In this document: positions 1-37,710 of the stretch, piece by piece | How the letters are laid out: each line of letters starts with the position of its first letter | How positions within the stretch are numbered: the stretch's first letter is position 1 | Origin: a virus | Lineage: Duplodnaviria; Caudoviricetes | Reading direction: 5' to 3' (one strand) | IMG/VR virus record: IMGVR_UViG_3300010398_000019 | Coordinates: 1-39,205 of that record | Length of the DNA: 39,205 bases | The notes under the pieces: generated by a model | The model's input: the letters and a program-made list of their open reading frames with translations, nothing else | Told to the model about the DNA's origin: nothing | Databases searched by the model: none | Program-made: the position numbers and the translations under genes

Positions 1-1089
1 CCCGCCCGACCCGTCCGAATGCTCCGGCGTCGGAAGCAAGACTTCGCCCTGCGGCCGGTCCGCGGCCGAAAACCGCCCGCCGAGCGCGTACATCGTCTCT
101 GTCCCGGACGCGCCGCGAGCCGCCCGCGGCGTCGGGAGAAGATCCGCGACGTCGGCGAGCGTCGTCCCGTCATGATGCGCCGACCCGTCCCGCCGCGGCG
201 ACGTCGTATTCCGCGACCCGCGGGAATCGGCGACGGTCGGCGTCGGGAGCCGCGTCTCGGCGCGTCCCGCGAGCGCGACGGTCATCGCGAGAGTCAGCCC
301 GAACCCGTTCCCGTTCTGTCCCTTCGCTAGCTCCCGCTCCCGGCGGGCGATAACCGTCTCCGGCTTGTCGCCGAAGCCGCCCGCGTCCGGGCTCGGGAGA
401 AGACCTATCGCCCGGTACGGCGACGGCGGGTTCGCCCGGTAGACCCGCCCGTCCCGCATCGAACCGGCGGTCGGGAACGTCCCGGCGTACTCGACCGGGC
501 CGAACAGCGTCTCCTGCGGGCGCATCCACCGGCCGGACTCGAGAATCGCGAACGGGAACCGGGACGGCGCCGGGGCGGTTACGACGTCCCGGCGGACCGC
601 GAGGATAAAGACGCGAGCCCGTTCGTGCGGCGCGCCGATATCCGCGGCGCGGACGACGACCCACCAGACGTCATAGCCGAGCCCGTCGAGGTCGCGGAGG
701 ACGACGTCGAAGCCGAGCGACAGGTGTCCCGAGACGTTCTCGAAGACGGCGAACTCCGGACGTAGAGCGCGGACCGCGACCGCTATCGACGGCCATAGGT
801 GCCGCGGGTCGTCGGTTCCGCGTCGCCGCCCGGCATGGCTAAACGGCTGGCACGGGTAGCCGCCCGTTACGGCCCGGACCCGGTCGAGCGCGCCGGAGTC
901 GAGCGCGCCGGCCCAGTCGATCAGCTTTATGTTTCCGAGGTTCGGGAGACCGGGGTAGCGGTGCGCGAGCAGCGCGGCGACGTCCGCGTCGTTATCGGCG
1001 ACCCAGCGGACTTCGCCGCCGAGAACATGAGCGACCGCGGCTTCAAGCCCGCCGTAGCCGGTACAGAGCGAGCCGGTCGCTACTGGCAC
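1..1089 (-). CDS. DNA (cytosine-5)-methyltransferase, 3'-truncated by the window edge
   Basis: Translated by hand from GTG at 1089: motif I SLCTGYGG, LGNI, catalytic AGYPCQPFS, FENVSG, APHERARVFI, then several LPTP/LPSP repeats; no stop before position 1. Confidence 0.93.
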   Translation of the reverse strand, partial: MPVATGSLCTGYGGLEAAVAHVLGGEVRWVADNDADVAALLAHRYPGLPNLGNIKLIDWAGALDSGALDRVRAVTGGYPCQPFSHAGRRRGTDDPRHLWPSIAVAVRALRPEFAVFENVSGHLSLGFDVVLRDLDGLGYDVWWVVVRAADIGAPHERARVFILAVRRDVVTAPAPSRFPFAILESGRWMRPQETLFGPVEYAGTFPTAGSMRDGRVYRANPPSPYRAIGLLPSPDAGGFGDKPETVIARRERELAKGQNGNGFGLTLAMTVALAGRAETRLPTPTVADSRGSRNTTSPRRDGSAHHDGTTLADVADLLPTPRAARGASGTETMYALGGRFSAADRPQGEVLLPTPEHSDGSGG

Positions 1090-1391
1090 ATCGCCACCGC
1101 CCGCCGGTACGCGACGGCGACGTCGCCGAGCGGGTGTTCGGACGGAAGGTCGCCGACCGGGCCGACGAGGATCCACGTCGCCGAGATCGGGTACGGCCAC
1201 TCGGGCTCTTGGAACGGCGGAGCGCCGAGCGGCGCGACGTAGAGAAGGTTCTCTTCGTTGTGCCCGAGATAGAAGACGATCCCGGAGTCGCCCGGGTAGG
1301 CCGGGATCCCGCGGGAGCCGAGAAGTAGCTCGCCGGGGCGGAGCCGGATCTTCGAGATAAACCCGCCCGGGCCGACGAGCCCGCCGTTCAC
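1080..1391 (-). CDS. Hypothetical protein (~103 aa)
   Basis: 3' part of track ORF 1080..1691; GTG at 1391 forms a GTGA overlap with the upstream stop; its stop overlaps the MTase start. Confidence 0.6.
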   Translation of the reverse strand: MNGGLVGPGGFISKIRLRPGELLLGSRGIPAYPGDSGIVFYLGHNEENLLYVAPLGAPPFQEPEWPYPISATWILVGPVGDLPSEHPLGDVAVAYRRAVAMCQ

Positions 1392-1588
1392 GTCGGGAGC
1401 CCTAGGTAGCGACGGCAGGAGCAGCAGGCGAAGCCGCGGACGTTCTTCTTCCATTCGTCGAAATCGGTCGAGTAGTCGAGCGACGGGCCGACGAGCCGCC
1501 CGCACGTCGTATAGCTCTGCGACGGGTGGGCGTAATGCTGCGCGATAATCTTCCGGACGCGGAGCGGCGACCGCTTCTTCGCGATCAT
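1388..1588 (-). CDS. Small Cys/His-containing hypothetical protein (~66 aa)
   Basis: MIAKKRSP...HYAHP...TTCG...ACCSC; ATG at 1588 in ATGA overlap with the HNH stop. Confidence 0.6.
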   Translation of the reverse strand: MIAKKRSPLRVRKIIAQHYAHPSQSYTTCGRLVGPSLDYSTDFDEWKKNVRGFACCSCRRYLGLPT

Positions 1589-2160
1589 GAGAAGCTCCAA
1601 GCGATCCGCCACCACCGGGCCGGGTTCCACCGGGCGCGCCGCTCGGCGGCGAAGATCTCCCGGGCCGTCGCCCGGTCCGACGTCTTCCCATGCTCGACGC
1701 CGCGGGCGTCTACCCAGAAGGTCATCTTCACTAGATTGTGCTCGCCGCATAGGACGAAGAGGTTCGGGAGCTTCGAGAGCCCGCCCCACGACCAAGGCGT
1801 CTTATGGTCGAGGTGTAGCTCGTCTACGACGACGACGAGCCCGCTCCCGCAGTAGACGCAGCGGGCGCGGTCGGCGAAGAGGACGGCCCGCCGGTACCGG
1901 GCCGGGATTCTCGACGATCGCTGCTCGTTCCGCGGCGGAGCGCCGTCCCGGTTCCGCCAGTCGGCGCGCCACGTCCGCGGGACGGTTAGCGCGAGCCAGT
2001 ACGGGACGCCGACCGCGACCGCGACGACGGCGAGCGGCCATAGGGAGAGCGCGAATAGCTCGGCGAGCGTAAGCCCGGCCCAGGAACCGGGCGTCCCGGC
2101 GTAGAGCCAGAGCCCGGCGGAGCCGACGACCGGGAGCGCGAAGGTTGACCCGCGGTTCAT
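1585..2160 (-). CDS. HNH endonuclease with N-terminal transmembrane segments
   Basis: Two hydrophobic N-terminal stretches, then RARCVYCG...LHLDHKTPWSWGG...NLFVLCGEHNLVK. Confidence 0.85.
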   Translation of the reverse strand: MNRGSTFALPVVGSAGLWLYAGTPGSWAGLTLAELFALSLWPLAVVAVAVGVPYWLALTVPRTWRADWRNRDGAPPRNEQRSSRIPARYRRAVLFADRARCVYCGSGLVVVVDELHLDHKTPWSWGGLSKLPNLFVLCGEHNLVKMTFWVDARGVEHGKTSDRATAREIFAAERRARWNPARWWRIAWSFS

Positions 2161-2184
2161 GGTTCACCATCCAGGATTTAGAGC

Positions 2185-2472
2185 TTAGGCGTCGGGCGGG
2201 CTCGGCGGAGAGACCCGGAACCCGGCATCCCGGACGAGGATCGTCTCGCCGCCGACCCGGACCTCCTGTGTAGCCCATCGGCCGGTCCGAACGAAGCGCC
2301 AGTAGTCCCAGCAGGCGAGCGCGTACCGGAAGAGAAGGTAGGCGCCGAGCAGCACGATCCCGGCGGCGAGAGCGACGCCGAACATTAGCGCGGGATGGTC
2401 GGCGAAGACGGCGAGGACGAGCGCGGTAAGGAACAGCCCGCGGGTACCCGCCGGGACTACCGGGCCGTTCAC
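2185..2472 (-). CDS. Small membrane protein (2 TM)
   Basis: Hydrophobic GLFLTALVLAVF and LMFGVALAAGIVLLGAYLLF; overlaps the HTH gene stop. Confidence 0.7.
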   Translation of the reverse strand: MNGPVVPAGTRGLFLTALVLAVFADHPALMFGVALAAGIVLLGAYLLFRYALACWDYWRFVRTGRWATQEVRVGGETILVRDAGFRVSPPSPPDA

Positions 2473-2714
2473 GTCTCCGCCTTAAGGATCTGGGAGAGCC
2501 GGTCTTCGCGGCCGAGTAGAGCCTTCGCGAGAGCCCGGGCGTACTTCGGGCTCGCGCCTTGGAGCCCGCGCTCGACGAGCCCGACGTGAACGTCGGAGTA
2601 GCCGGTCAGCCGCCCTAGCTCGGAGTAGGAGAGCCCGCGGTAACACCGGAGCCTACGGACTTCGGCCAGGTCGAGCGCGACGGACCGGTTCGGCCGTCGC
2701 CGTGTCGCTTCCAT
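2469..2714 (-). CDS. XRE/Cro-family helix-turn-helix regulator
   Basis: VRRLRCYRGLSYSELGRLTGYSDVHVGLVERGLQGASPKYARALAKAL matches the HTH_3 pattern; purine-rich RBS GAGGGGAG upstream. Confidence 0.9.
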   Translation of the reverse strand: MEATRRRPNRSVALDLAEVRRLRCYRGLSYSELGRLTGYSDVHVGLVERGLQGASPKYARALAKALLGREDRLSQILKAET

Positions 2715-2745
2715 CGGAATCTCCCCTCGTTCGGTTAGAACTTCT

Positions 2746-2810
2746 CCTAAGTTTAGCTGTCCGACTCGCCTAGCGCTATGTCCGACCCGCCGCGTAGACT
2801 TAGGTCTACG
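2746..2810. promoter_or_regulatory. Divergent promoter pair with candidate operator repeats
   Basis: TAAACTTAGG (minus, 2746-2755) mirrors TAGACTTAGG (plus, 2795-2804), both starting with a TANNNT -10-like hexamer; TGTCCGAC repeated at 2758 and 2779; inverted repeat CGTAGAC-N4-GTCTACG at 2793-2810. Confidence 0.55.
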
Positions 2811-2863
2811 GGACGAGCCGGGAACCGCCCGGGTCTCCTACCAGCAAGGATCGGTGAATCCAC

Positions 2864-3949
2864 ATGCCAGCCGAAGTCGATCAAATGTTCTCCGTCCGAG
2901 AGGTCCCGTGGCACCGGGAAGGCGAAGTCCTCGCCGACTACCCGAACTCATGGGAAGCGGCTCGGGTCCTGGCCGGTCTCGACTGGGATCCCGAGCCGTT
3001 CGACGTCTACCGGTCGGATCTCGACGACGACGCGCTCCGCGTCCAGATCGCTCGGATCATGCTCGGGACGGACGGTACCGAAGGCGAGAAGATCGACCGC
3101 GTCGTCCGCATGGTCCGCGAGACCGCCTACCCCGCTATCGACGGGTGGCAGCGCGTCGGCCGGGACGACGACCCGACGAAGACGCTCGCCTGTACGAAGG
3201 CGAGCTACGAGGTTATCCGTCACTCGGCGTTCGGCGAGATCCTCGAAGCGGTTCTCGAACAGGACCGCGATAACCTCCGCGTCGAGACCGGCGGGTCGCT
3301 CGCGGGCGGTACGAAGGTCTGGATGCTCGTCCGGCTCGACGAGCCCATCGCCGTCAAGGGCGACCGGTCGCTCACCATGCCCTATGTCGCGCTTACGTCG
3401 CGCCATGACGCGGGCGGTTCGACCGCGGCGCGGGCGACCATGGTCCGGATCGTCTGCGCGAACACGTTCCGGGCGGCCGAAGCGGAAGGCGACCGGACCG
3501 GTCTTACCTTCTCCTTCCGCCACACGAAGAACTGGCGCGACCATGTCGAAGACGCCCGGGACGCGATCCGCGGCGTCCGCCGGGAGATCCGCGAGTACGT
3601 CGAGATCGCGAACGAGCTTCTCGGGATCCCGGTTACGGCCGGCCAGACCGAACTGTTCGTCCGCGAGTTCATCCCGACGCCGCCCGAAGGTCTCATTACG
3701 GAGCGGGTCTCGCGGAACATCGAAGAGGCTCGGACCGCGCTCCGGGCGATTCTCGGTTCGACGACCGTCGAAGGAGCCGGGATCGACGGGACCGCGTTCG
3801 GGCTCATCCAAGGCGCGGTCGAGTATCTCGACCATGTCCGGACCGCCCGTACGTGGGAGACGCGGCTTAACCGGACGATCATCAAGCCGGAGCGGATTAA
3901 GGCGAAGGCTACGCGGCTCGCCCGCGAGGTCGCTCTCGCCGACGCCTGA
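2864..3949 (+). CDS. DUF932 / TIGR03299-type phage-plasmid protein
   Basis: MFSVREVPWH, AGLDW, ETGGSLAGGTKVWML, SRHDAGG, TMVRIVCANT, FRHT, GTAFGLIQGAVEYLDH. Confidence 0.88.
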   Translation: MPAEVDQMFSVREVPWHREGEVLADYPNSWEAARVLAGLDWDPEPFDVYRSDLDDDALRVQIARIMLGTDGTEGEKIDRVVRMVRETAYPAIDGWQRVGRDDDPTKTLACTKASYEVIRHSAFGEILEAVLEQDRDNLRVETGGSLAGGTKVWMLVRLDEPIAVKGDRSLTMPYVALTSRHDAGGSTAARATMVRIVCANTFRAAEAEGDRTGLTFSFRHTKNWRDHVEDARDAIRGVRREIREYVEIANELLGIPVTAGQTELFVREFIPTPPEGLITERVSRNIEEARTALRAILGSTTVEGAGIDGTAFGLIQGAVEYLDHVRTARTWETRLNRTIIKPERIKAKATRLAREVALADA

Positions 3950-3960
3950 CCGGTGGGTAG

Positions 3961-3986
3961 GCCGGACCCGCGAGCCCGGGTCCGGC
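3961..3986 (+). terminator. GC-rich hairpin downstream of DUF932 (possible terminator or processing site)
   Basis: GCCGGACCCG-N6-CGGGTCCGGC perfect 10-bp stem; no U-tract. Confidence 0.4.
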
Positions 3987-4037
3987 CCGCCGACCGGGAC
4001 AGTCGTCCCGGCGACCTAGGAGAAGGGACTAGGGACC

Positions 4038-4457
4038 ATGAATACGACGAGACCCTCGAACGGGCGGGAAGCCGCCGAACTGATCGAAGAAGCCGACTTC
4101 TGGCTCGACGCCGACTCCGGATGGAAGGGAAAGCTCTCCGGAGCGGAGCGGCTCGCCCGCCGGTCCGGCGACATGGAGAAGGCGCAGGTCCGGGCGACGC
4201 TCTATGTCGGCGACATGCTCGGACTCGTCGCCGAGCGGCTCGGGCTCCTGACCGAGTCGGTTAATGCGGCGTCCGGGACGCTCGAAGAGATCCGCGACCG
4301 GACCGACGACCGGCTCGGCGAGGTCGCCGGGACGCTCGATACCGGGCTCGACAAGATCTCCGAGACGCTCCCGGAAGGGACCGAGGTCGGGCGGCTACTC
4401 GACGGGATCGTCGAGTCTCTCGACCGGATCGACGCGAAGCTCGGGAACCTGTCATGA
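4038..4457 (+). CDS. Hypothetical helical/coiled-coil protein
   Basis: 139 aa ORF with phage-like codon usage and upstream AGGGA; ATGA-coupled to the next gene. Confidence 0.8.
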   Translation: MNTTRPSNGREAAELIEEADFWLDADSGWKGKLSGAERLARRSGDMEKAQVRATLYVGDMLGLVAERLGLLTESVNAASGTLEEIRDRTDDRLGEVAGTLDTGLDKISETLPEGTEVGRLLDGIVESLDRIDAKLGNLS

Positions 4458-4987
4458 CTACCGGAACCGCGGACCGGCCGGAGAAGACGGTCGCCGAGTT
4501 CGCCGACGACGTTATGGCCATGATCGCCGACCACCAGAAGCGCGGGATCCTCCCGGCCGAGCTACCGGACCTTACGACCGTCCATGACTACGTAGATGGG
4601 AATGTCTACCTGATCGACGCGCTCGAAGGCTACTTTCCCCGCGGCGACGAGACCGCGGAGGTCATGTTCGGCGACGAAGAGATCGCCGTCTCGAACGCCG
4701 TCTCCGAAGAGGTAGACCGGCGGCTCCGAGCCCGCTACGACGAGATCCTCGCCGGGCGCGGCGAGCCGCGGGAGGTCGAGCAGCTAGCCGCCCAATTCTG
4801 GGCGTCCGACGTCTCCGCGCATGTCCGCTACCCCGGGTCGGCGAGGTCGCTCGAACAGACGATCCGGCTCTGGCTCGCGTCCCGCGGGCACCGCTGGCCG
4901 GAGCGCGACTTCGACGCCCTGTTTATGGTCGTTCTCGACCGCTGGCCGGCCGACGACCTCGCGAAGTGGAAGGGTGAAAGCTCATGA
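4454..4987 (+). CDS. Hypothetical protein
   Basis: 177 aa ORF in an ATGA-coupled chain. Confidence 0.8.
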   Translation: MTTGTADRPEKTVAEFADDVMAMIADHQKRGILPAELPDLTTVHDYVDGNVYLIDALEGYFPRGDETAEVMFGDEEIAVSNAVSEEVDRRLRARYDEILAGRGEPREVEQLAAQFWASDVSAHVRYPGSARSLEQTIRLWLASRGHRWPERDFDALFMVVLDRWPADDLAKWKGESS

Positions 4988-5205
4988 CCCTAGGGCTCGA
5001 CTACTCGCTCGACGAGTGCCCGTACTGCCGGAAGCGGCTCGACTCGGCTCCGCCCGCCGACTGCCCGGACCCGGGCGGGCACCGGGCCGAGCGGGACGAG
5101 ATCCTCCCGGGACCGCGGCTCGGCTGCGGCTGCCCGACCGATTCCGGCTGTAACGGCCGGCATCCGGGCGCGCTCGGTTCCGCGTCCGGATACGACGAGA
5201 GATAG
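4984..5205 (+). CDS. Small Cys-rich hypothetical protein
   Basis: CPYC, CPDPGGH, CGCPTDSGCNGRH; ATGA overlap. Confidence 0.65.
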   Translation: MTLGLDYSLDECPYCRKRLDSAPPADCPDPGGHRAERDEILPGPRLGCGCPTDSGCNGRHPGALGSASGYDER

Positions 5206-5212
5206 GTGAACC

Positions 5213-6028
5213 ATGACTACGAAGCCCGACCCGGCGACGATGACCGGCGACGAGATACTCGCCGAGATCCGCGCCGCGCTCCCTGCTATCCGCGAGATCC
5301 CGACGAGCCCGTCCGACCCGGGCTGGCCGGGACCGGTAGCGTCGAACCTCGCGTCGCTGAACGAGCTAGTCGCCGAACTCGTCGGCGCGCTCGCCGACCG
5401 CGGGATCTCCGACCCGGAGTTCGCCGACATGGTCCGGCGGATCTTCCGGGATCATTCTCACCGGCTCGGGTTCGAGTTCCGCGGCGAGCCGTTCTTCGGC
5501 GACGGCGGCGACCTGCTCGACCGCATGGTCGAAGAGATCCTCGCCGTCTCGTCGCCGACCGGCGGGACCGACTACGAAGAGCAGAAGTGGAAGCGGGCCG
5601 TCCGCGGGATCGCCGCCCGGATCTTCCGCGCCGGCATGGCGTCCGGGTGGGATAAGCACCGCGCCGCGCCTCCCGCGGGCGACCGCGCCCGGGACCTCGC
5701 TAGCCAATGGGAAATGTCGGCGAGAGCCGCCGCGCCCGAACGCCGGGACGGCGAAGTCTCGACGGAGATCCGGTCGGCGACCGCGGCGACTTTCCTAGCC
5801 TGCGCCCGGGAACTCCGCGCCGCGTTCGGCCCGGCGGAACCGTTCGGCGTCCCGGACCTGGACTGCCGGACCTGCTCCGGCGCGGGCCGGATCCCGGTCG
5901 ATGCGAGCGTCGCCGGGTCGCCTACGCGGCGCTGCCCGGACTGTCCCGGTGACCCGGACGGCCCGGCCGGGCTCGGCCCGGGCGAAGCGTTCGACGCGGG
6001 ACGCGGGACGGGCGGGCCGACGTCATGA
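5213..6028 (+). CDS. Hypothetical protein with C-terminal CxxCxGxG...CxxC zinc finger
   Basis: CRTCSGAGRIP...RCPDCPG; AGGTG upstream. Confidence 0.75.
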   Translation: MTTKPDPATMTGDEILAEIRAALPAIREIPTSPSDPGWPGPVASNLASLNELVAELVGALADRGISDPEFADMVRRIFRDHSHRLGFEFRGEPFFGDGGDLLDRMVEEILAVSSPTGGTDYEEQKWKRAVRGIAARIFRAGMASGWDKHRAAPPAGDRARDLASQWEMSARAAAPERRDGEVSTEIRSATAATFLACARELRAAFGPAEPFGVPDLDCRTCSGAGRIPVDASVAGSPTRRCPDCPGDPDGPAGLGPGEAFDAGRGTGGPTS

Positions 6029-6210
6029 GCGCGCCGCTTCCCGGGATGCCCGAGTCTGCGAAGCCCGAACCGCAACTCGACGACCGGTCCGCGCTCGACC
6101 GGATCGCCGAAGCCATGCGCGGCGACGAGTGGAACTCCGACCTTTGGAACGTCATCGCCGACCTCGTCAACAAGACCGGCCGGACCGCCTACTACACCGC
6201 GGAGGATTAG
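6025..6210 (+). CDS. Hypothetical protein (61 aa)
   Basis: ATGA-coupled ORF ending just before a strong hairpin. Confidence 0.7.
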   Translation: MSAPLPGMPESAKPEPQLDDRSALDRIAEAMRGDEWNSDLWNVIADLVNKTGRTAYYTAED

Positions 6211-6225
6211 GAGCCTAGAACGGCG

Positions 6226-6267
6226 AGAAGCGCCCGCTCCCGGGACTAGCCCGGGGCGGGCGCTTCT
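6226..6267 (+). terminator. Intrinsic terminator-like hairpin closing the plus-strand operon
   Basis: AGAAGCGCCCGCTCCCGGG-actag-CCCGGGGCGGGCGCTTCT, about 18-bp stem with one bulge, 15 nt after the stop. Confidence 0.7.
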
Positions 6268-6421
6268 AACTGTTACGCGGCTCTGAGAGCCACGGAGACG
6301 GCTCGGGTTCCGTGGCTATGCCTCCGTATTGCCACGGTTCTACTCGCTCGGGCGCGTACAGCGCCGCGGCGGGCGCAGGGCTTCTAGTCTCGCTGCCCCC
6401 CTAGGGGAGACACTAGGGTTC

Positions 6422-6691
6422 ATGAGCCGGCCGCGGAAGTACAATCCCGCTCCCGGCGACCGCTACGGGCGGCTCGTCGTCATCTTCGCGCCGGACCCGG
6501 AGCCGGGTAAGGAGCGGCGGGTCCGGGTCCGCTGCGACTGCGGTAACGAGGTCTCGCCGCTCCTTAAGAACGTATGCCGCGGCCTAACCCGCTCCTGCGG
6601 CTGTCTACTCCGCGAAGTCGCGGCGAAGGCTGCGGCCGAGATGGCGACCGGCCGGCCATGGTGGGAGCGGCGCCGGGTTAGTGGACGTTGA
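6422..6691 (+). CDS. Stand-alone Cys4 zinc-ribbon protein (N-terminal module typical of phage AP2/HNH homing-type endonucleases)
   Basis: ATG at 6422; GDRYGRLVV...RCDCGNE...RGLTRSCGCL; no nuclease domain follows. Confidence 0.65.
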   Translation: MSRPRKYNPAPGDRYGRLVVIFAPDPEPGKERRVRVRCDCGNEVSPLLKNVCRGLTRSCGCLLREVAAKAAAEMATGRPWWERRRVSGR

Positions 6692-7034
6692 GGACGACCG
6701 CGTGTCCCGCGGCGAGCATCGTCGCGGCGAAGTCCCGGCCGTCCGCGAGCGTGATCGTCCCATCGAACCGGCCGCCGTACTTATCCCACCCGTGGGAGAC
6801 GACTTGGCAGCGGTCGCCCGGCTTAAGGAGCCCGCGGGCGAAGTCGAGCGCGTCGGTCCCGGGCGTCGTCGATAGCTCGGGCGCGTTGATGCCGAAGATC
6901 CGGCAGGCGAGCCGGGTCTTCCCGTCGAAGTCGGTCCCGGAGATCAGGTGATCGAAGCCGAGGTCGATATCGAGCGTGACCGTGTCGCCGTCGTGGACGT
7001 TGACGACGCGGGCCGGGTACGGGCCGAAGTCCAT
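6678..7034 (-). CDS. Thermonuclease (SNase-like) family nuclease
   Basis: VVNVHDGDTV, RIFGINAPEL, DKYGGRF, MLAAGHAV; RBS GAAAGG; no signal peptide. Confidence 0.9.
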   Translation of the reverse strand: MDFGPYPARVVNVHDGDTVTLDIDLGFDHLISGTDFDGKTRLACRIFGINAPELSTTPGTDALDFARGLLKPGDRCQVVSHGWDKYGGRFDGTITLADGRDFAATMLAAGHAVVLNVH

Positions 7035-7053
7035 AGTTAGACCTTTCGTTAGG

Positions 7054-7186
7054 GAGACCGATCCCGGCTCTCCGGCGCTTGGAGCGTGCCCCTATCCCGG
7101 CCGGAACCGGCCCGGATCGCCTACCGCTACCGGGCGCGGGCCGGGAGACTTCTCCCGAAGTGCTGAGGCTGGCCGGGACCGGTCTC
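7054..7186 (-). promoter_or_regulatory. Candidate structured RNA leader upstream of the thermonuclease
   Basis: 7054-7068 and 7172-7186 form a 15-bp helix whose single plus-strand A-C mismatch is a G-U pair on the minus strand; internal hairpins. Confidence 0.35.
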
Positions 7187-7316
7187 TACTAGTAGGTTCC
7201 GGATCCGGGACGTAAGTTCGACCCATGGACGGAAACTTTTTTAGCAACGGGAACTCGCTCGCCGCCGCGGGCAAGCCGATCTACGAGCCGCGGATCTTCC
7301 GGCGCTTCCGGCGCTC

Positions 7317-8331: not shown

Positions 8332-8334
8332 GAC

Positions 8335-8880: not shown

Positions 8881-8882
8881 GG

Positions 8883-26975: not shown

Positions 26976-26979
26976 GCCC

Positions 26980-30257: not shown

Positions 30258-30295
30258 GTCGAAAGACCTCCGGACATGACGAAGGAACGGTAAGG

Positions 30296-30405: not shown

Positions 30406-30410
30406 GTTCG

Positions 30411-31985
30411 CTAGGCGTCGGCCGCGTCGAGTTCGTTATCGAACTCTTGCTGCGCCATGACTAGCGACAATGACATTACCCGCGGACCGGCGGTACGGGA
30501 AGGAACTCCGGCCGGCCCGGGCGCGGCGGACCCGTGCTGGTGGTCGTGGCTATCGTCGCCCGCGTGGCTATGCATGTGATCGTGCTGAGCGTCTCCGCCC
30601 TGCGACCCGTAAGCCGGGTGGGCGTGGGCATGGTCGCCGTTATACGCGCCGTGAGCCGCCCGGTCTTCGCCGGTCTCGTCTTCGATACCCCAGGTCGCGA
30701 GGTCCGCGGCGAGGTCGGCGACCGTCGCGTCGCCGGCGACCGTCCCGGCGGGCTCGCCGCGTTCGGCGACCATGACCGCCCGGCCGTACTCGATAGCCGT
30801 CGCGCCCGTCCCGAACCGCTCCGCGAGTTGCCGGTACGCCGCCCGGGCGGCTCCCGCGGGAAGGTGGTCGAGCGCGGCGAGGATCTCCGGCGCCCGCGCC
30901 GCGATGGAGGTGTAAGGGTTCGCGCCGTAGTTGACGGCCGAGACGTCGCCGCGGTGGATATCCGCCTCGTAGATCGTGAAGTGATCGTAGTCCTCGTTCC
31001 ACCCGCCCGCGGTCAGGTAGAAGGCGAACGACATCTCGTCTACGAGCCCGTCGTCGATCGCCGAGACGATATCCCGGACGTCCTGCCGGTTCGCGTTCAG
31101 CCATGCCCGGGCGCCGAGCCCGGTCGAGTCGGCCCACAGTTCGAGCGTCTGATTCTTCGTCCGCGCCATCGTGACGCCCTTGTGGTTGACGAGCCACGCG
31201 ACGTCGAGCCCGTCCCGTTCGAGCGAAGCGTCGAAGGCACCCTTCTTCACCGTCTCGTCGTACGGGCCGAACATGTCATACATGGTGTAAGGCGTATCGA
31301 CGACGCTCGCGTAGCCTTCGACCTCGTAGAAGCTCTGCCCGTCCCGCGTGACCGGCTTCGCCCGGAGCTTCCCGGAGAACGACTGCAACCGGGCCGGGCC
31401 GAGCGGGATAAACCCGCGGCTCCCGTACGCCGAAGCGCGGTCCGGCGCGCCGTTCGTCTCATAGTCCGGGTTGATCTGCTTCATATGGTTCTCCAAGTGG
31501 GTACGCGCCGCGGCTTCGTTCGTAAGCCCTTGGGTCGTCGGGAGCCGGGAGAGCGCGTTCCGAGTCCCGGCCGCGTTCGGACCCTTCCCCGGGTAGTGAT
31601 GCGGGAGCGCATGAGCGGCCTGGGTCGCCGGGTCGCCCGCCTTCTTCCCGGCGCATATCGAGCCGTAGCAGCCCGCCGAGTCGTCCTTCGCCGCACATTG
31701 GGACATCGCCTTATCGGCGTCCCAGGCCGAGTTATCGACGTCGGCGCGGTAGTGGAGCGGGCCGGCCGCCCGCTCGGCGCATGGCTCGCAGTCCCAGGTT
31801 AGTTTCGCGAGTCCGCTCGACATCTTGGCTCCCGGTTCGTTCGCGTAGAGCGCGGCCATATGCGTCTCCGCTTCGGCTTTCGTCGGGTGACAGCCGCCCG
31901 GGACGACGTTCCCGGTCGCGTCGAGAATGACCCCCCACGGCTTCGACGCCGGACATTGCGCCGTCTTGCTCACATGCCACGGCAA
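30411..31985 (-). CDS. HK97-family prohead protease with two extra N-terminal domains and a His-rich C-terminus
   Basis: VEGYASV, ETVKKGAF, LVNH, DSTGL, EMSFAF, DVSAVNYGANPYT. Confidence 0.9.
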   Translation of the reverse strand: MPWHVSKTAQCPASKPWGVILDATGNVVPGGCHPTKAEAETHMAALYANEPGAKMSSGLAKLTWDCEPCAERAAGPLHYRADVDNSAWDADKAMSQCAAKDDSAGCYGSICAGKKAGDPATQAAHALPHHYPGKGPNAAGTRNALSRLPTTQGLTNEAAARTHLENHMKQINPDYETNGAPDRASAYGSRGFIPLGPARLQSFSGKLRAKPVTRDGQSFYEVEGYASVVDTPYTMYDMFGPYDETVKKGAFDASLERDGLDVAWLVNHKGVTMARTKNQTLELWADSTGLGARAWLNANRQDVRDIVSAIDDGLVDEMSFAFYLTAGGWNEDYDHFTIYEADIHRGDVSAVNYGANPYTSIAARAPEILAALDHLPAGAARAAYRQLAERFGTGATAIEYGRAVMVAERGEPAGTVAGDATVADLAADLATWGIEDETGEDRAAHGAYNGDHAHAHPAYGSQGGDAQHDHMHSHAGDDSHDHQHGSAAPGPAGVPSRTAGPRVMSLSLVMAQQEFDNELDAADA

Positions 31986-31990
31986 CGGGA

Positions 31991-33319
31991 TCAGGCTCCG
32001 GGCGGTCCGACCGCGGCCGGGCTCGGCGACGCCGGGCTCGACGGGCTCGCGGCCTTCGGCGGGAAGAACTGTAGAAGCTCGTCGATCTGCGGCTGCGTGA
32101 ACGGCGGGAGACCGTCGTTCTCGCGTAGCTCCGAAGGAGCGCGGAGCCGGGCGTCGATCAGCGTCTTAAAGTACGTCGCCCGGGTCGCCGGGTCCATCGC
32201 GAGAAGGTCGTCGGCGTCGAGACAGACGTACCGCGGCGCTTGGGTCAGCGTCGAGAGCGCCCACTCGCGGCGCCGGATCGCCGGGCGGAGGTGGACGATC
32301 AGGAACGATAGGTGTCGCTGCGTAATGTTCGCGTACGTGATCCGCGTCCCGTTATTGATCTCCGCTTCGATCAGGTCGGACGGAGCGCCGAAGAACCGGG
32401 CGACGTCGAGTACCCCGGACCGCTGCCCTTCGAGCCAGTCCGTCGAAGCCTGCTGCGCTTGTATGAGGTCGTACTCCCAGTCGTTCCCGAAGACGAACGG
32501 TTCGCCGGTCGCGACCGACGCCCGCCACGACTCCTTAACGATCGTCGCCTCTTTCGGGTTGATCGTCTTCTGCTTGTTCTGTAGCCGAGCCCGCGGGACG
32601 CCGCCGCCGACGAACCATTCGATAGCAAACCGCTCGATACTCTCCCACCGGCCGAGCGTAAACGCCGCGTAGGCGACCGGGGAGAGCCCGACCGGGAGCC
32701 CGGGAACCGGGAACTGCCGCTCATGCCAGATGACGTCCGGGAGATACTTCTTCCCGCCGATCCGGTAGCCGGAGAGCTTCCCGCCTTCGGTGAGGACAAC
32801 ACAGTTCATCGCCGGCTGTAGCTCGATTACCTTCGGGAGCCCGAGCCCGTCGAACTCGCGGATAATGCCGATGGCGTTCCCGGCCCGGTCGAGATCGACT
32901 TGCGAAGCGTAGAGCCATTCCGGGAGCCCGATCCGGCCGGCGCCCGCGTACGCCGTCCCGGGCGGAGCGCCGGACGGCCAGGACAGGACCGGCGGCGTCG
33001 TAACGAGGATCGGGATAACCGACCCGTCCGGCTGAACCGCCTTCCGGTAGACCGACAGCGGAAGCGACGAGACCATATCGGCGCGGAGCCGCAGACAGGC
33101 CCAGACCGCCGAGTTCCGGAGCGCCGTCTCCGGCGTCACGTACGGGATGCCGCCCCGGCCCGAACCCGGCCGCGGCGCGATCAGGTCGGTCCAGTTCGTA
33201 ATGCCGAGGTAGTCCCGGACCTGCTGCATATCGACGATCCGCCCGGCGAGCGAACCCTTCCCAGCCGGGACGAGAGCCGAGCCGGGAGACCCGAGCTTCG
33301 GCCCGGAGATCAGTCCCAC
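31991..33319 (-). CDS. Portal protein (HK97 family)
   Basis: ALRNSAVWAC...SLPL, GNA, GLSPV, VARFFGAP, TYANI, ELRENDGLPP. Confidence 0.95.
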   Translation of the reverse strand: MGLISGPKLGSPGSALVPAGKGSLAGRIVDMQQVRDYLGITNWTDLIAPRPGSGRGGIPYVTPETALRNSAVWACLRLRADMVSSLPLSVYRKAVQPDGSVIPILVTTPPVLSWPSGAPPGTAYAGAGRIGLPEWLYASQVDLDRAGNAIGIIREFDGLGLPKVIELQPAMNCVVLTEGGKLSGYRIGGKKYLPDVIWHERQFPVPGLPVGLSPVAYAAFTLGRWESIERFAIEWFVGGGVPRARLQNKQKTINPKEATIVKESWRASVATGEPFVFGNDWEYDLIQAQQASTDWLEGQRSGVLDVARFFGAPSDLIEAEINNGTRITYANITQRHLSFLIVHLRPAIRRREWALSTLTQAPRYVCLDADDLLAMDPATRATYFKTLIDARLRAPSELRENDGLPPFTQPQIDELLQFFPPKAASPSSPASPSPAAVGPPGA

Positions 33320-33322
33320 GGC

Positions 33323-33619
33323 TTACCGGATCCGCGAGTCGATCCGCAGGCAGAAGAGCCCGCCCGCGATCAGCCCGGCCCATACGCCGAAGCGGAGCGC
33401 GATCCCGGCGGAGATCAGCCCGGCGCCGGCGATCCCCGGGAGCGCGAGCCGGTACTCGGCGACCCGGGCGACCCGCGGCGCGAGCCATTCCCGAGCCCTA
33501 ACGCTCGCCGAGCTCAGAATCTCGCGGAGCGGCCGCCGGTCTGCAACCCGGCGGGCCGCCGGCTCCGGGATAATCTCCCGGATTACGCCGCCCGGGTGCG
33601 TCGCCGTCCCGTTCGCCAT
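33323..33619 (-). CDS. Small membrane protein preceding the portal
   Basis: GGAGGG RBS; C-terminal GIAGAGLISAGIA...WAGLIAGGLF hydrophobic hairpin. Confidence 0.75.
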   Translation of the reverse strand: MANGTATHPGGVIREIIPEPAARRVADRRPLREILSSASVRAREWLAPRVARVAEYRLALPGIAGAGLISAGIALRFGVWAGLIAGGLFCLRIDSRIR

Positions 33620-33629
33620 CAGGTCCCTC

Positions 33630-35345
33630 CTAAGTCCCGGCCCGGATCAGCGCCGAGTAGTCCCGGCCGGTCGCCTTATGTAGCTCGGTCAGCCCGCGGT
33701 CGTCGATCAGTTCGGCGGCGAAGAGCCGGGCGATATCCGCCGGGCCGTAGACGCCCATATTGCATAGCCGGATGATCTCGGTCAGGTCGAAGTGGACCGA
33801 GTCGCCGACGTCGTAGGAGTCGCCGCCGAGCTTCCGGTAAAGCCAGTGCGCGAGCGAGTACGCGACGAGCGGCGAGATATCGACGTCCGAGTTAACCCGG
33901 TCCCACGCGAGCCCATCGCCGAGCTTCCGCGTCGCCGCCCCGGCGAGCGCGACCGCGACCTCCTTATCCGTCGCGTGCGTCAGCGCGTCGTCGCGGAAGT
34001 CGTCGTAGATCCCGCCGAACGCGAACGCCATATCCCGCGCCGCGGGCTGGATCACGTTAAGCCCGCTCGCGATCATGTCGTCGATCAGCGTCCCGGCCGC
34101 GGCTCGCGGATCTACCGCCCACCCGACCGGAGACCAGCGGCGGTCGAGTTCGAGCGCCCGGTTAAGGAGCCACGACGTACCGGGCCGGTGGTCGGCGAGT
34201 TCGAGATGAACCTTCGCGACCGCCCGCGGGACTCCGCCGTCCGGATCGGGCCGGAAGACCTTCGACTCGCGGCCGGCTCCCGCGAGCGCGATCGACGAGA
34301 AGGTCCGCTTCGGCGTCGTATCTATCGCGAACGCCGGAGCGCCCGGCCGCGGGACCTCGTCGTTAGCCGTCGCCGTCCACCACCGTCTAGGAATGACGGC
34401 CCAGCCGTCTTTCGGCGCCGGATACGTCCCGACGTCGAGCCGCTCGACCGCGAACGATGCCGCGTCCATGCCGCGGGCTTCCCGCTCGACCGCTTCGAGC
34501 GTCAGCCCGGTCCCGTCCGAGTGGATATAGCCGAGACCCGGGTTCGCCTTGTAGTAGGACTCGACGTCGTAAACCTCGTCGTGTTCCCCACAGCCCGGCT
34601 CGCAGTACGGCGTGTGCGGGTCGATAGACCACTCGGCGAAGAAGAGCGCCGGGTCGCCGCCCGCGAGCCCGCGGGTCCGGATCAAAGCTAGCTGCGTCGA
34701 GACCGACCCGAGCCCGGCCGACGCCGTATACCAGACCTGCGTACCGCCCGCCGTCGCCATATTCCGCGCCGACATGGTCGGGAGCGACGAGCCGACGATA
34801 TCCGCCGACAGGATCATCGCCTCGTCGTAGACGAGCAGGTCGCAGGAGAACCCGCGAGCCGCCGTCTTCGACCGCGCCAGGAACCGGAGCCGCGTCCCGC
34901 CGCGGAACTCGATCCCCTCTTCGCCGTGCGACTCCGGCATCTTCATAACCGCCCGGTCGAGATCCGGCGTCGCCTCGATCAGCTTCCGGATACGCCGGAA
35001 CGCCTCCTGCGACGTCCGGAACTCATGCGCCGTATGGATGATCAACGTCTCGCCGAAGAGGACGAGCCCGGCGAGTTCCCGCGCCTCCAAGATCGCCGAC
35101 TTTCCGTTTTGCCTCGGAATGATCAAGCCGATCTCCCAGGCTGCCCACTTCCCGTCGCGCCGCTCCGCGAGCGCCCGGTCGAGTACCCACGCCTGCCACG
35201 GGTCGAGAACGAGCCCGGCGCGCCCGGCCAAGTCCACCGCTTCCGACCCGGCGGAAGATACGGCGGGCGGGACCGAGCACAACCGGGGCCGCGATTCACC
35301 AACCCTGAGCGCGGCGTCGCCGGTCTCGCCTAGCCGCGATCTCAT
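33630..35345 (-). CDS. terL: Terminase large subunit
   Basis: LDPWQ, Walker A IPRQNGKS, HTAH, RGFS, Walker B LVYDEA, ANPGLG, FAID, DISPLVA. Confidence 0.96.
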   Translation of the reverse strand: MRSRLGETGDAALRVGESRPRLCSVPPAVSSAGSEAVDLAGRAGLVLDPWQAWVLDRALAERRDGKWAAWEIGLIIPRQNGKSAILEARELAGLVLFGETLIIHTAHEFRTSQEAFRRIRKLIEATPDLDRAVMKMPESHGEEGIEFRGGTRLRFLARSKTAARGFSCDLLVYDEAMILSADIVGSSLPTMSARNMATAGGTQVWYTASAGLGSVSTQLALIRTRGLAGGDPALFFAEWSIDPHTPYCEPGCGEHDEVYDVESYYKANPGLGYIHSDGTGLTLEAVEREARGMDAASFAVERLDVGTYPAPKDGWAVIPRRWWTATANDEVPRPGAPAFAIDTTPKRTFSSIALAGAGRESKVFRPDPDGGVPRAVAKVHLELADHRPGTSWLLNRALELDRRWSPVGWAVDPRAAAGTLIDDMIASGLNVIQPAARDMAFAFGGIYDDFRDDALTHATDKEVAVALAGAATRKLGDGLAWDRVNSDVDISPLVAYSLAHWLYRKLGGDSYDVGDSVHFDLTEIIRLCNMGVYGPADIARLFAAELIDDRGLTELHKATGRDYSALIRAGT

Positions 35346-35754
35346 CTATAAAGCCCGCCTGTCGTTCTTCGCCGTCTCCGGACCGCTGCGCCTGGTCGAG
35401 CCCGAGCAGGCGACGGCGGGAGACCGAGATCCGCTGCAATCGGTCGATAGCCCGGAGCGCGAGCTTCGGATCCGGGAGCGGGCCGTTAACCGCCTGCCGC
35501 ATGATCATCTGTGCGGCTCGTTCGAGCCCGTCGAGCCGTTCGAGTTCGAGCGTTATCGCATGGTCGGCGAGCTTCGCGAGATCCGCGCCGCGGGCGGCGA
35601 GCGCCCGCTTAACGTCCATGCACGCCGCCGCCGCCGAGCTTAGATCCGGCTCCTGGTCGGCGATCTGCTGGAAAGTCGCCCCGGCCGCCCGCATCGCGAG
35701 AACCCGCGCCCGCCGCTCCGCGACCTGTGCCTGTTCCCTAGCCGACGCCGGCAT
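35296..35754 (-). CDS. terS: Terminase small subunit (N-terminal HTH)
   Basis: RRARVLAMRAAGATFQQIA...LELERLD...AIDRLQRI..RRRLLGLD...IDEIAARR; immediately upstream of TerL. Confidence 0.8.
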   Translation of the reverse strand: MPASAREQAQVAERRARVLAMRAAGATFQQIADQEPDLSSAAAACMDVKRALAARGADLAKLADHAITLELERLDGLERAAQMIMRQAVNGPLPDPKLALRAIDRLQRISVSRRRLLGLDQAQRSGDGEERQAGFIDEIAARRDRRRRAQGW

Positions 35755-36751
35755 TCCCGGCCCGTTCCGCCCGGCGGGCGACCTTCGCCGCGCAGTTCTC
35801 CCGGTGCTCCGCCATCACTTCGCCCGCTACCTCCCGCATCACGTCGGCCGCGGCGAGGTAGAGCGGCTCGTCGTAGACGGCGAGCGGCGTCCACGCCCAC
35901 GGCCGGAGCGTATGAAAGACCCGCGGTCCGCCGCGCCCGTTCGCATGCTTCGCCCGGACGCCGAGCTTTACCGCGTCCGGCGCGACCCGCTGAATCCCGA
36001 CCGTCCGCTTATGATCCGCGTACCCCGGGCGCATCCCGCCGCCGACCGACATGTCTTTCCGGTAGTGAAGCGGGAGGACGAGCGCCGCGGTCGCGTCGTC
36101 CGCGCCGGACCCGTACTGGTAGGCGTGCAAGATGTCCTCTTCTATCGGCCCGAAGTACGGTAGCCGCTCGTCTTCCCGGTCCGCCCGCTCGATAAAAAGC
36201 GAGTAGGGGAACCCGGCCCGGGCGAAGACGCCGACCTGCGAACCCGGGTGGACCGCGTCGAGTGACGCTCCCGTCATCTTCGAGTTAGTCGCGAGCGTCA
36301 CCGCGGCGAGGATATCGGCGTAGAACCCGAGCCCGCCGCGGCGCCGGACGACCTCTACCCCCGGCTGCCCGCCGAAGAACGCGCCGAGCCGGGCGAGGTT
36401 ATCGTCGAGTTGAAGGACGGCCCAGAAGCCGCGCTCCGCGGCGAGCCGGACCGCCGCTTCCCGCTCCGTGAAGCAGCCCAGGAACCCGCCCGGCCCAGCG
36501 TACGGGACGTCGCCGATCCAATGCCCGGCCGCGAACTCTTCCGCCCAATCCGCCGGGAACGTCGCGACCTCGAACCCGTCCCGGTCATAGCCGCCCGCCC
36601 GGTCGTCGCGGACGAGCCAGACCGGGTCGGCGGTCACGCCGACGAGCGACCCTAGGAACCGCGCCGTCTTCCGGTCGCGGAGCGCCGGCCGGTTCCCGGA
36701 GATCGCGACCGGGAGAATCCCGGCGAGCTTACCGGTCGGGGTAACGGACAT
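35738..36751 (-). CDS. TAGT/GREB1-like DNA-base glycosyltransferase (GT-A fold)
   Basis: ISGNRP...T, VWLVRDD...Y, R..A...A...G...LQLDDN, YSLF, EED, GGM...Y...P layout matches TET/JBP-associated glycosyltransferases; lies between ParB and TerS. Confidence 0.6.
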   Translation of the reverse strand: MSVTPTGKLAGILPVAISGNRPALRDRKTARFLGSLVGVTADPVWLVRDDRAGGYDRDGFEVATFPADWAEEFAAGHWIGDVPYAGPGGFLGCFTEREAAVRLAAERGFWAVLQLDDNLARLGAFFGGQPGVEVVRRRGGLGFYADILAAVTLATNSKMTGASLDAVHPGSQVGVFARAGFPYSLFIERADREDERLPYFGPIEEDILHAYQYGSGADDATAALVLPLHYRKDMSVGGGMRPGYADHKRTVGIQRVAPDAVKLGVRAKHANGRGGPRVFHTLRPWAWTPLAVYDEPLYLAAADVMREVAGEVMAEHRENCAAKVARRAERAGNAGVG

Positions 36752-37319
36752 CGACGACCCCAGCGATCTTCATGATCTCCGGCCCGGCCCGGTCCCGATC
36801 CTCCGCCGACGCGAAGAGAACCGTAACCGTATGCTGAACGCCGAAGAGCCCGGCCGCGTCGTCTTCGAGGTCGAGCGTCCCGGCCGGGAGCGCCTCGAAC
36901 CCGCCGATAACCTTCCGCCAGTCCGCGAGGTCGAGCACCTCGCCGAACGCGCCGTCGAGCCCGTCGAGTTCCCGCGCTAGAAGCCCGTAGTCCCAGACGG
37001 CGTAATCGTGCGTCCGGTTATCCGCGACCCGGTACGCCCGGACCTGCTCCGCCGAAAGATGCTCCGCGACGACGACCGGAGCGACGTCGAGCTTAAGCCG
37101 GATCGCCGCGAGCCGCCGGACATGCCCGACGATGACGACGAAGTCCGGATCGACGACTATCGGCTGTTCCCACCCGAACTCGCGGATCGACGCCGCCGTC
37201 TGAACGACCGCCTTATCCGAGATCCGCCGCGGGTTCCCCGGGTACGGCCGGATCGACCGGACCGGGACGACCCGGACCTCCGGAAGCGGAACGACCGCCG
37301 GCTCGCCCATGTCCGCCAT
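36729..37319 (-). CDS. ParB/Srx N-terminal domain protein
   Basis: IRPYPGNPRR, SIREFGWEQPIVVD, IVGHVRRLAA, AYRVADNRT, WDYGLL. Confidence 0.9.
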   Translation of the reverse strand: MADMGEPAVVPLPEVRVVPVRSIRPYPGNPRRISDKAVVQTAASIREFGWEQPIVVDPDFVVIVGHVRRLAAIRLKLDVAPVVVAEHLSAEQVRAYRVADNRTHDYAVWDYGLLARELDGLDGAFGEVLDLADWRKVIGGFEALPAGTLDLEDDAAGLFGVQHTVTVLFASAEDRDRAGPEIMKIAGVVDVRYPDR

Positions 37320-37710
37320 AGCTCGAACCCTTCCGGATGTTACAGATTAGATGCGCTAGCTGCCCGTTCGCTATCGTGTGCGCTCCGCCACGGGCGACCG
37401 GGACGACATGATCGAAGCTCGGTCCCATGAGCCCGGAAGGCTCGACGACCTCGAACCCGCATATCCCGCAGTCCGGGCCGTCCCGGTCGATAACCGCCCG
37501 GAGCCACGCTCGCGGGACCGGAGCCCGAGCCCGGGTATCGTCCCACTCGTCGCGGCATCGGTCCGAGCAGACGAACTCGTTCCCGGACGGGTAGAACTCC
37601 GTCCCGCAGACCGGGCATTCGGCGCCCGGCGGGACCGGCCACGCGAGCCGAAGGAACGGCCGGCACTTCCGGCACCCGCACGGACGGCCGGACTCGGGCG
37701 CGAGCACCAT
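37213..37710 (-). CDS. HNH endonuclease with N-terminal zinc ribbon
   Basis: CPVCGTEF...CSDRC; RDGPDCGICG...SFDHVVPVARGGAH...NGQLAHLICNIRKG; 3' end overlaps ParB by about 107 nt. Confidence 0.85.
   Translation of the reverse strand: MVLAPESGRPCGCRKCRPFLRLAWPVPPGAECPVCGTEFYPSGNEFVCSDRCRDEWDDTRARAPVPRAWLRAVIDRDGPDCGICGFEVVEPSGLMGPSFDHVVPVARGGAHTIANGQLAHLICNIRKGSSYGGHGRAGGRSASGGPGRPGPVDPAVPGEPAADLG

What the first reader, a model, noticed from the sequence alone, without database searches (positions are those of the whole stretch)
1..37700. CpA/TpG depletion with TpA excess: a RIP-like footprint of cytosine modification at CpA?
Seen (hand counts, approximate): TG+CA occurs about 11 times in 4081-4320 and about 3 times in 23041-23280, against roughly 25 expected per 240 nt at 70% GC. 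In gene 4038..4457 Leu is CTC 16x, CTG 3x, CTA 1x, and no Val is GTG, although CTG and GTG are normally major codons in GC-rich actinobacteria. CA is also avoided across codon junctions by using T: the tape measure reads GCT CTT AAC GAC CCG GTT AAG near 16797-16820 instead of CTC AAC / GTC AAG. TTAA, CTAG and GTAA are conspicuously common, and CpG is abundant. Established: 5mC deaminates to T, so methylated CpA decays to TpA, and TpG on the other strand also becomes TpA. Inference: the phage's own C5-MTase (1..1089) may target CpA or a very short CA-containing motif, leaving a mutational scar. Alternatively, selection against a host system recognising CA/TG produces the pattern.
Basis: partly seen in the sequence, partly recalled or inferred. 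Interest (0 to 1): 0.8.

Follow-up and report, generated by a model that had tools for sequence, protein, structure and literature searches.

The report
Soil phage purged of CA dinucleotides
This soil actinobacterial phage carries half the expected CA/TG pairs, in a codon pattern that matches selection against the DNA word rather than methyl-cytosine decay, likely because an as yet unidentified, probably host-side, enzyme reads a two-to-three-letter target in phage DNA.

Summary
Observation confirmed: CA/TG odds ratio 0.49, TA 1.16, at 69% GC, against 1.05±0.06 and 0.50±0.10 in 120 related loci. A relative at 82% identity shares it. The RIP-like reading fails. T is lost before G at four-fold sites (35 of 3192, versus 9-14% before other bases), where C→T decay would change the protein. 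T before A is not raised (ratio 0.88; simulated decay gives 4.5-5.2). Selection of about -2 log units per site fits. The target is roughly CAV/BTG, with CATG spared. The window's C5-MTase looks multispecific; four of its six repeats have close matches in sister phages that are not CA-poor. Sister phages lose CC instead, and an unrelated family holds CA-poor and CG-poor clades. The agent is not identified. Best guess: a host reader of a very short motif (0.45). Rivals: the phage's own CpA methylation with a per-site cost (0.25), or its ParB-TAGT cassette (0.12). Neither the literature searches nor earlier scan notes showed this pattern.

The parts
1..37850 (.). CA/TG-depleted genome body (coding and non-coding, both strands)
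   Evidence: rho 0.35-0.59 in 1.5-kb windows; non-coding gaps 0.29-0.51; core and accessory genes and plus-strand genes alike
37850..38320 (.). Island without CA/TG depletion (55% GC, 52 TG and 19 CA on + strand), between two HNH genes upstream of ParB-TAGT-terS; likely genome-end/packaging region (inferred from position)
   Evidence: rho 1.23 vs maximum 0.75 elsewhere; contigs of run X2 match across most of it with 0-1 differences; no Rfam hit
38320..39205 (.). Depletion resumes (HNH gene and contig end)
   Evidence: 0.65 in 38320-38592; 0.43 in the last 205 bases
1..1089 (-). C5 cytosine methyltransferase, cut by the contig end; full form 579 aa (P0099) with six tandem L[P/L][T/S]P repeats read as target-recognition modules
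   Evidence: PF00145 E=2e-30; P0099; repeats compared
36729..37319 (-). ParB N-terminal-domain protein (196 aa), overlapping the TAGT gene
   Evidence: PF02195 E=4e-6
35738..36751 (-). TAGT-family GT-A glycosyltransferase directly upstream of terS; no TET/JBP partner found in the contig
   Evidence: PF20691 E=6.5e-10; model pLDDT 92.8 matches GT-A folds; PF12851 no hit, without a positive control
33630..35754 (-). Terminase small (assigned by position) and large subunit genes, used to place relatives
   Evidence: phrog_9 for TerL; 86% aa identity to L085

Best explanation
The phage's DNA is depleted of the double-stranded word CA/TG (roughly 5'-CAV-3'/5'-BTG-3', strongest as CCA, spared in CATG) in a codon pattern that matches per-site selection rather than C-to-T decay, and the selecting agent is likely a host-side enzyme that reads this very short motif in phage DNA. 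Shown: size of the effect (about 7-10-fold per synonymous site), its independence from strand, codon phase and protein consequence, and its soft flanking preferences. Inferred: each site carries a small cost, since about 2000 sites remain and an all-or-none cut would be lethal. That is how a partial nicking, phosphorothioate-type, modification-gated or PAM-type defence would act over long co-evolution. Inferred: different host lineages read different CpN words, which would explain why sister phages lose CC and an unrelated family has CA-poor and CG-poor clades. The window's multi-repeat MTase would be an ordinary anti-restriction enzyme, and might protect CATG. The agent and the host are not identified.
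For: Conditional-logit fit on 10,690 synonymous choices: CA/TG -2.04±0.05, control +0.22; it is the first term chosen among all 2-6-mers. T before G at four-fold sites 35 of 3192 versus 8.7-14.1% before other bases, about equal for next residue A, G, V, D or E and similar in core and accessory genes. Simulation: decay strong enough for rho 0.5 predicts T|G ratio 0.7-0.8, T|A 4.5-5.2, TA 1.95-2.25; observed 0.11, 0.88, 1.16; selection S=-2 predicts 0.15, 1.5, 1.33. No single phage gene is shared by all CA-poor contigs as held: window and G001 share only ParB and TAGT; G035 has neither in its 17 kb. These phages are visibly shaped by host restriction: window GTCGAC 0 of 56 expected, CGCGCG 1 of 71, GGGCCC 0 of 19. 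CG-poor G056 still avoids GTCGAC (0/18), GCCGGC (4/72), CCCGGG (1/60), GGCGCC (4/70), GACGTC (0/11), sites that CpG methylation would block (blocking recalled). CA-poor G001 has 0 copies of 9 CA-containing palindromes expected 2-9 times each. So self-methylation is not protecting these words. Precedent for short-motif selection: PAM depletion (PMC4246573, passages); CCA-based Ssp defence (PMC13251355, passages).
Against: No host or defence gene was identified. A search of 401 genomes of the candidate host family with half the window gave prophage relatives; 8 short matches were checked and none lay in a CRISPR-like array. No Cas9 RuvC_III match in 301 genomes, without a positive control; no Cas9 over cut-off in 5. 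No described defence was found with a CAV target. Candidate host DNA is not CA-poor (0.99-1.14), so the host would need self-marking. Hexamer-avoidance profiles do not group the CA-poor phages tightly (window-G001 r=0.44, window-G058 r=0.43). Phases where C is free are 0.3-0.5 more depleted than the others, and in G001 the TA term is positive (+0.66 to +0.75), which points to some C-to-T input. In the G001 family the deficit goes with a small C5-MTase (see rivals). The contig is about 46% complete.
Confidence: 0.45

Rival explanations
1. The phage methylates its own CpA (through a small ~220-aa C5-MTase in the unassembled part, or through repeat 2 or 4 of its long MTase). Each methylated site is costly, for example to modification-dependent restriction, so sites are purged by selection with a small deamination component.
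For: In an unrelated ~37-40 kb family, 6 of 8 contigs with the small MTase are CA-poor with high TA (0.57-0.83), 1 is CG-poor (0.70), 1 is GC-low (0.84); 0 of 4 contigs at least 70% complete without it are CA- or CG-poor (CA 0.91-1.08). Every depleted word starts with C (CA, CC, CG, CT). Mild phase asymmetry. Phage MTases with dinucleotide-like targets exist: GpC (PMC8256090, passages), CC-relaxed (PMC5537653, PMC3925955, passages).
Against: Only 6 of 71 small-MTase loci show the CA-low/TA-high signature, in two separate clades; six of the eight carriers were found by the MTase query and kin share traits. The gene is not in the window, and none of the best 120 of 7994 homologues lies on a 64,120-base contig. 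CA- and CG-containing restriction sites are not relieved. Two Aeromonas phages whose MTases are reported as relaxed have CC 0.94-0.95. The window's TA term (-0.3 to -0.4) is close to its sisters' (-0.4 to -0.6).
Confidence: 0.25
2. The ParB-TAGT cassette beside the terminase modifies a base in TG/CA, for example T of TpG after oxidation by a dioxygenase in the missing part, and the bulky mark costs per site.
For: The closest TAGT among viral loci (62%, G001) lies in an otherwise unrelated CA-poor phage; 9 of 37 TAGT loci are CG-poor (below 0.8). A ParB-dependent phage T-dioxygenase prefers NTG, then NTA (PMC13229309, parts 1-3 and 5 of 7).
Against: 36 of 37 TAGT loci are not CA-poor, among them DelaGarza (0.94) and Lilbeanie (0.88). 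G035 and G053 are CA-poor with no TAGT hit in the parts held. No TET/JBP in 35 TAGT records or the window, without a positive control. The phase asymmetry runs toward C, not T, and CG is not raised over control after fitting CA.
Confidence: 0.12
3. Physical or replication constraints of the phage's own machinery select against flexible CA/TG steps, together with homopolymer runs.
For: CCCC (-2.3) and AAA (-0.9) are also avoided.
Against: TA, the other flexible step, is not specially avoided; CATG is spared; close sisters lose CC instead.
Confidence: 0.08
4. RIP-like mutational scar: methylated CpA deaminates to TpA.
For: TA is 2.3 times the control median; C<>T differences to L085 are most frequent before A (15 of 206).
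Against: T|G depletion and the missing T|A excess contradict the simulated process. C<>T before T is as frequent (22 of 317). Trp is not depleted (2.0% vs 1.7%).
Confidence: 0.04

Closest known systems
Restriction-site avoidance in phage genomes
   Same: Strand-symmetric selection against a DNA word, blind to protein consequence; this phage also shows it for hexamers.
   Different: The word is 2-3 bases, non-palindromic, only partly purged (about 2000 sites left), with soft flanking preferences.
CRISPR PAM depletion in phages (PMC4246573)
   Same: Short motif, partial depletion, expected to differ by host; sisters lose CC/GG and AAG/CTTC-type words.
   Different: No spacer or Cas system was linked; no CA or TG PAM appeared in the passages read.
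SspABCD-SspE phosphorothioate defence (CCA) (PMC13251355, PMC12914056)
   Same: Single-strand, high-frequency three-base motif; CCA is the most depleted context here (-2.7).
   Different: ACA, GCA and TCA are also depleted (-1.6 to -2.1); the passages read do not show that phage CCA is the cut site.
Fungal repeat-induced point mutation; CpG decay (recalled)
   Same: CpA/TpG low and TpA high at the level of odds ratios.
   Different: No product excess, depletion at non-synonymous phases, genome stays 69% GC with intact genes.
Multispecific phage C5-MTases (M.SPRI, M.phi3TI type) and two-frame M.EcoHK31I (names recalled)
   Same: Tandem repeat modules between motifs VIII and IX; sisters G058 and G059 carry the repeats in an overlapping frame.
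   Different: Here fused in one frame; targets unknown; no link to CA.
Phage C5-MT/5mYOX/GT and ParB-dependent T-dioxygenase pathways (PMC8256090, PMC13229309)
   Same: ParB and a GT-A glycosyltransferase beside the terminase; dinucleotide-level specificity.
   Different: No dioxygenase detected; the MTase is 35 kb away on the contig; solitary TAGTs are noted as unexplained (PMC13216743, passages).

Membership tests
RIP-like / 5mC deamination scar | CpA/TpG deficit with raised TpA odds ratio | tested here: met
   0.49 and 1.16
RIP-like / 5mC deamination scar | Product excess (T before A) at synonymous sites | tested here: not met
   ratio 0.88; simulated 4.5-5.2
RIP-like / 5mC deamination scar | Little depletion where the decaying base is protein-constrained | tested here: not met
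   T|G 35 of 3192; CAV at 2-3 -1.72
Motif avoidance under host defence (R-M, PAM, PT) | Strand-symmetric depletion independent of codon phase and protein effect | tested here: met
Motif avoidance under host defence (R-M, PAM, PT) | Host encodes a system with that target | tested here: inconclusive
   host unknown; no spacer or Cas9 found in the genomes searched
C5 DNA methyltransferase (PF00145) | Catalytic motifs I, IV (PCQ), VI (ENV), VIII, IX-X | tested here: met
   Pfam hit; motifs read in P0099 (motif labels recalled)
CpA-specific C5 methyltransferase | Methylates CpA | not testable with these tools
   needs expression and sequencing; homologues lie in genomes that are not CA-poor
Multispecific phage C5-MTase | Several exchangeable target-recognition modules | tested here: inconclusive
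   six repeats, four with close matches in G058 or G059; single-sequence model useless, pLDDT 33; activity untested
TET/JBP-TAGT hypermodification pathway | GT-A fold TAGT beside ParB and terminase | tested here: met
TET/JBP-TAGT hypermodification pathway | 5-methylpyrimidine dioxygenase in the genome | tested here: inconclusive
   no PF12851 hit in the window or 35 TAGT records, no positive control, contig 46% complete

The most novel reading that the evidence does not exclude
Soil actinobacteria carry an undescribed defence that reads a switchable CpN dinucleotide (CA, CC, CG or CT) in phage DNA and penalises each site, a prokaryotic counterpart of the CpG suppression that ZAP imposes on animal viruses. 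Each phage's missing dinucleotide would then report the specificity of its host's system, and own methylation (CATG here) would mask the word.
Probability: 0.3. Interest if true: 0.85.

Novelty: new variant of a known kind. Interest (0 to 1): 0.66.

Why it matters
Known motif avoidance in phages concerns 4-8-base restriction sites or PAMs. A 7-10-fold per-site penalty on a dinucleotide-core word, switching between CA, CC and CG among related soil phages, points to a DNA-reading activity that is not catalogued. It makes a direct test possible: recoded reporter DNA, virion nucleoside analysis, and three named candidate enzymes. The codon-phase test used here separates methylation scars from selection in any phage genome.

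Tried and rejected
Assembly artefact or chimera: rejected. L085 from another record shares the signature (CA 0.53, CATG spared), and run X2 contigs match, island included. Host-like composition: rejected for the candidate family (host stretches 0.99-1.14). A-to-G or T-to-C hypermutation: CG is not raised over control after fitting CA; the double-mutation simulation gave TA +0.55 to +0.73 and His 0.3%, unlike the window. Mutational-robustness selection: no dependence on amino-acid consequence or gene class. RNA-level cause: CA and TG both fall on the coding strand and in non-coding DNA. Polarised substitution spectrum: not obtainable; read laying lists only 40 differences and mixes organisms, and L085 has no usable outgroup. 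TAGT as a sufficient cause: rejected. The first TAGT scan with one sequence found nothing; the alignment did. Small MTase on the longer assembly: not among the best 120. Spacer search: none. ncRNA or repeats in the island: none notable. MTase structure from a single sequence: pLDDT 33, unusable. PDB sequence search with the TAGT profile: nothing. Run X3 holds a small share of words and was not used for habitat.
Full report
What the window is. The 39,205 bases are the whole held record, a linear virus contig rated 46% complete, found in soil metagenome runs. It is an actinobacterial siphovirus fragment: terminase, portal, protease, capsid, tail, tape measure with NlpC/P60, Rv2525c-like endolysin. 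It ends inside a C5-MTase at position 1 and carries ParB plus a TAGT-family glycosyltransferase directly before the terminase genes. Prophage relatives (65-70% nucleotide identity in the capsid gene) occur in the family of a Trebonia MAG. A 64,120-base assembly encoding the same TAGT and the full 579-aa MTase exists but could not be read.

CA/TG is 0.49, TA 1.16, CG 1.44, GA/TC 1.44. 120 related loci of like GC give CA 1.047±0.064 and TA 0.50±0.10. Of 192 dereplicated groups, 3 fall below 0.6 and 8 below 0.8; two of those 8 have ordinary low TA. L085, 82% identical over 3.5 kb, has CA 0.53 and TA 1.03. Relatives at 57-61% terminase identity have CA 1.00-1.13, so the trait is recent in this lineage. 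One island (about 37850-38320) is exempt (1.23) and is confirmed by run X2. Its place between the last HNH gene and the packaging genes suggests a constrained genome-end region (inference).

Mutation or selection. If 5mC in CpA decayed, only phases where the C, or the G opposite it, is a free third codon base should be emptied, and T should pile up before A. I fitted synonymous codon choice given the protein (10,690 choices, 46 hand-picked genes; control 652 auto-called genes from 62 loci). CA/TG is the first term chosen, -2.04±0.05 against +0.22. All four phases are depleted: leaving out CAT, -1.72, -2.21, -2.31, -2.04. T before G at four-fold sites is 35 of 3192, against 193 of 1373, 200 of 1731 and 86 of 988 before A, C and T, and it does not matter which residue follows or whether the gene is core or accessory. 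Forward simulation shows that decay strong enough to give rho 0.5 leaves T|G at 0.7-0.8 of baseline and lifts T|A 4.5-5.2-fold; the window has 0.11 and 0.88; a penalty of -2 per site gives 0.15 and 1.5. The simulation lacks the TA avoidance seen in controls (0.41), which would lower its T|A. Of 2319 lost sites, TA gains 617, CG 1211, GA/TC 880. Against a pure-selection reading: the C-free phases are 0.3-0.5 deeper, and an earlier run with 3-fold decay plus selection matched that asymmetry, so a small C-to-T input is possible.

The word. 5' context: C -2.7, G -2.1, T -1.7, A -1.6; 3' context: A, C, G -2.2 to -2.4, T -1.1. The relief is mostly CATG (+3.35; L085 +2.73; control -0.33) and CATA/CATT (+1.25). 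Only the base two places upstream adds more. This is a dinucleotide core with soft flanks, like a modifying enzyme, nickase or PAM, and unlike a Type II site (inference). Separate hexamer avoidance is strong (GTCGAC 0/56, CGCGCG 1/71, GAGCTC 3/35, GGGCCC 0/19), while CCGCGG, CGGCCG, CCCGGG, GACGTC, TCGCGA and TCCGGA are tolerated.

The named MTase. P0099 has the C5 motifs and six tandem repeats between them. Sisters G058 and G059 carry the same enzyme type with the repeats in an overlapping frame. Repeats 1, 5, 6 match G058 and 3 matches G059 (6 also matches G059); 2 and 4 have only weak matches. G058 has CA 1.11, G059 1.17-1.22, G063 1.11-1.14, Shauna1 1.15. I read it as a multispecific anti-restriction enzyme (family names recalled), consistent with the tolerated hexamers. 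Repeats 2 and 4 remain open.

Relatives show a switchable CpN. The seven closest sister loci lose CC/GG (0.61-0.71) and three others CT/AG (0.75-0.85). In an unrelated 37-40 kb family, separate terminase branches are CA-poor (G001 0.72, L246 0.57, L250/L254 0.68/0.72) or CG-poor (0.58-0.76) (tree of 37 rows, two short rows left out). G001 shares only ParB and TAGT with the window. TAGT is neither sufficient (1 of 37 loci CA-poor) nor evidently necessary. A small ~220-aa C5-MTase is shared by the CA-poor members of that family: 6 of 8 carriers CA-poor, 1 CG-poor, against 0 of 4 fuller non-carriers. But only 6 of 71 loci with that gene show the signature, 29 prophage loci with it in Streptosporangiales do not, apart from one 59%-GC locus, and it is absent from the held window. 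CG-poor G056 still avoids sites that CpG methylation would block, and CA-poor G001 lacks most CA palindromes, so these words are not protectively methylated (blocking recalled; for CA sites this test is soft).

Mechanism. I commit to per-site selection by a short-motif reader, more likely host-side (0.45) than the phage's own CpA methylation (0.25) or ParB-TAGT (0.12). The selection step is shown; the agent is inferred. Direct tests for a host agent were negative or empty: no spacer in 401 family genomes searched with positions 19300-39205 (8 short matches checked), no Cas9 domain in 301 (no control).

Literature. Searches for phage CpA/TpG depletion or CpA-specific phage MTases listed nothing on this pattern; the library lacks most subscription papers. 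Read: PMC13229309 parts 1-3 and 5 of 7 (supplements, with the enzyme sequences, not read); passages of PMC13390438, PMC13216743, bioRxiv 2023.12.21.572611 (67), PMC8256090, PMC6536676, PMC3925955, PMC5537653, PMC13251355, PMC12914056, PMC4246573, PMC9433092. RIP, ZAP, multispecific MTases and restriction-enzyme methylation sensitivities are recalled. Earlier scan notes gave one unrelated CA/TG-rich island in another genome and no look-alikes.

Verdict. Real, extreme and lineage-specific; not a RIP-like scar. A new variant of motif avoidance with an unidentified agent. Interest 0.66.

Noticed in passing
L150-L156, L160, L162, L171, L249, L251, L253, L261, L350 (G002, G003, G013, G039, G056): CpG-poor (0.58-0.76) phages of 65-71% GC, which is unusual for actinophages; they still avoid CpG-containing restriction sites.
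   Followed up: partly
L086, L089, L119, L145, L005, L007, L008: Closest sisters of this phage are CC/GG-poor (0.61-0.71).
   Followed up: partly
window 35738-37319; L150-L184, L001, L002: ParB + TAGT cassette without detectable TET/JBP or PF00145 MTase in 35 records, often directly before terS; acceptor unknown; isolated carriers exist (DelaGarza, Gingerbug, Lesiram, Lilbeanie) for direct nucleoside analysis.
   Followed up: partly
L230, L236, L237, L247, L256, L259, L262, upstream of or near terS: The slot before the terminase swaps between cassettes: ParB+TAGT; (ParB)+C5-MTase+second methyltransferase; ParB-N6/N4-MTase(-PALP); GTP cyclohydrolase I.
   Followed up: no
L394:13583-15334 (-), L438:8809-10659 (-): C5-MTases whose repeat modules lie in an overlapping second frame; the window's form is fused in one frame and shares modules with both.
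   Followed up: partly
L185:10084-10746 (-), L246:604-1302 (+), L307-L377: Minimal ~220-aa C5-MTase family with a tiny variable region, widespread in actinophages (310 records in the phage collection), specificity not found in my searches.
   Followed up: partly
window 37850-38320: Island with normal CA/TG, low CpG and strong strand skew at the likely genome end.
   Followed up: partly
window 35280-36930: Run X2 contigs match the window exactly over most pieces but carry many differences across terS, TAGT and ParB, suggesting exchange of this cassette.
   Followed up: no
whole window: Strong avoidance of CCCC/GGGG, [CG]CCTC (GAGGAG 0 copies), CAGCTC and CA-N5-TG besides palindromes.
   Followed up: partly
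window 26980-28738: Methyltransferase (PF13578) and glycosyltransferase-like genes within the head gene region, possibly for virion glycosylation (inference).
   Followed up: no
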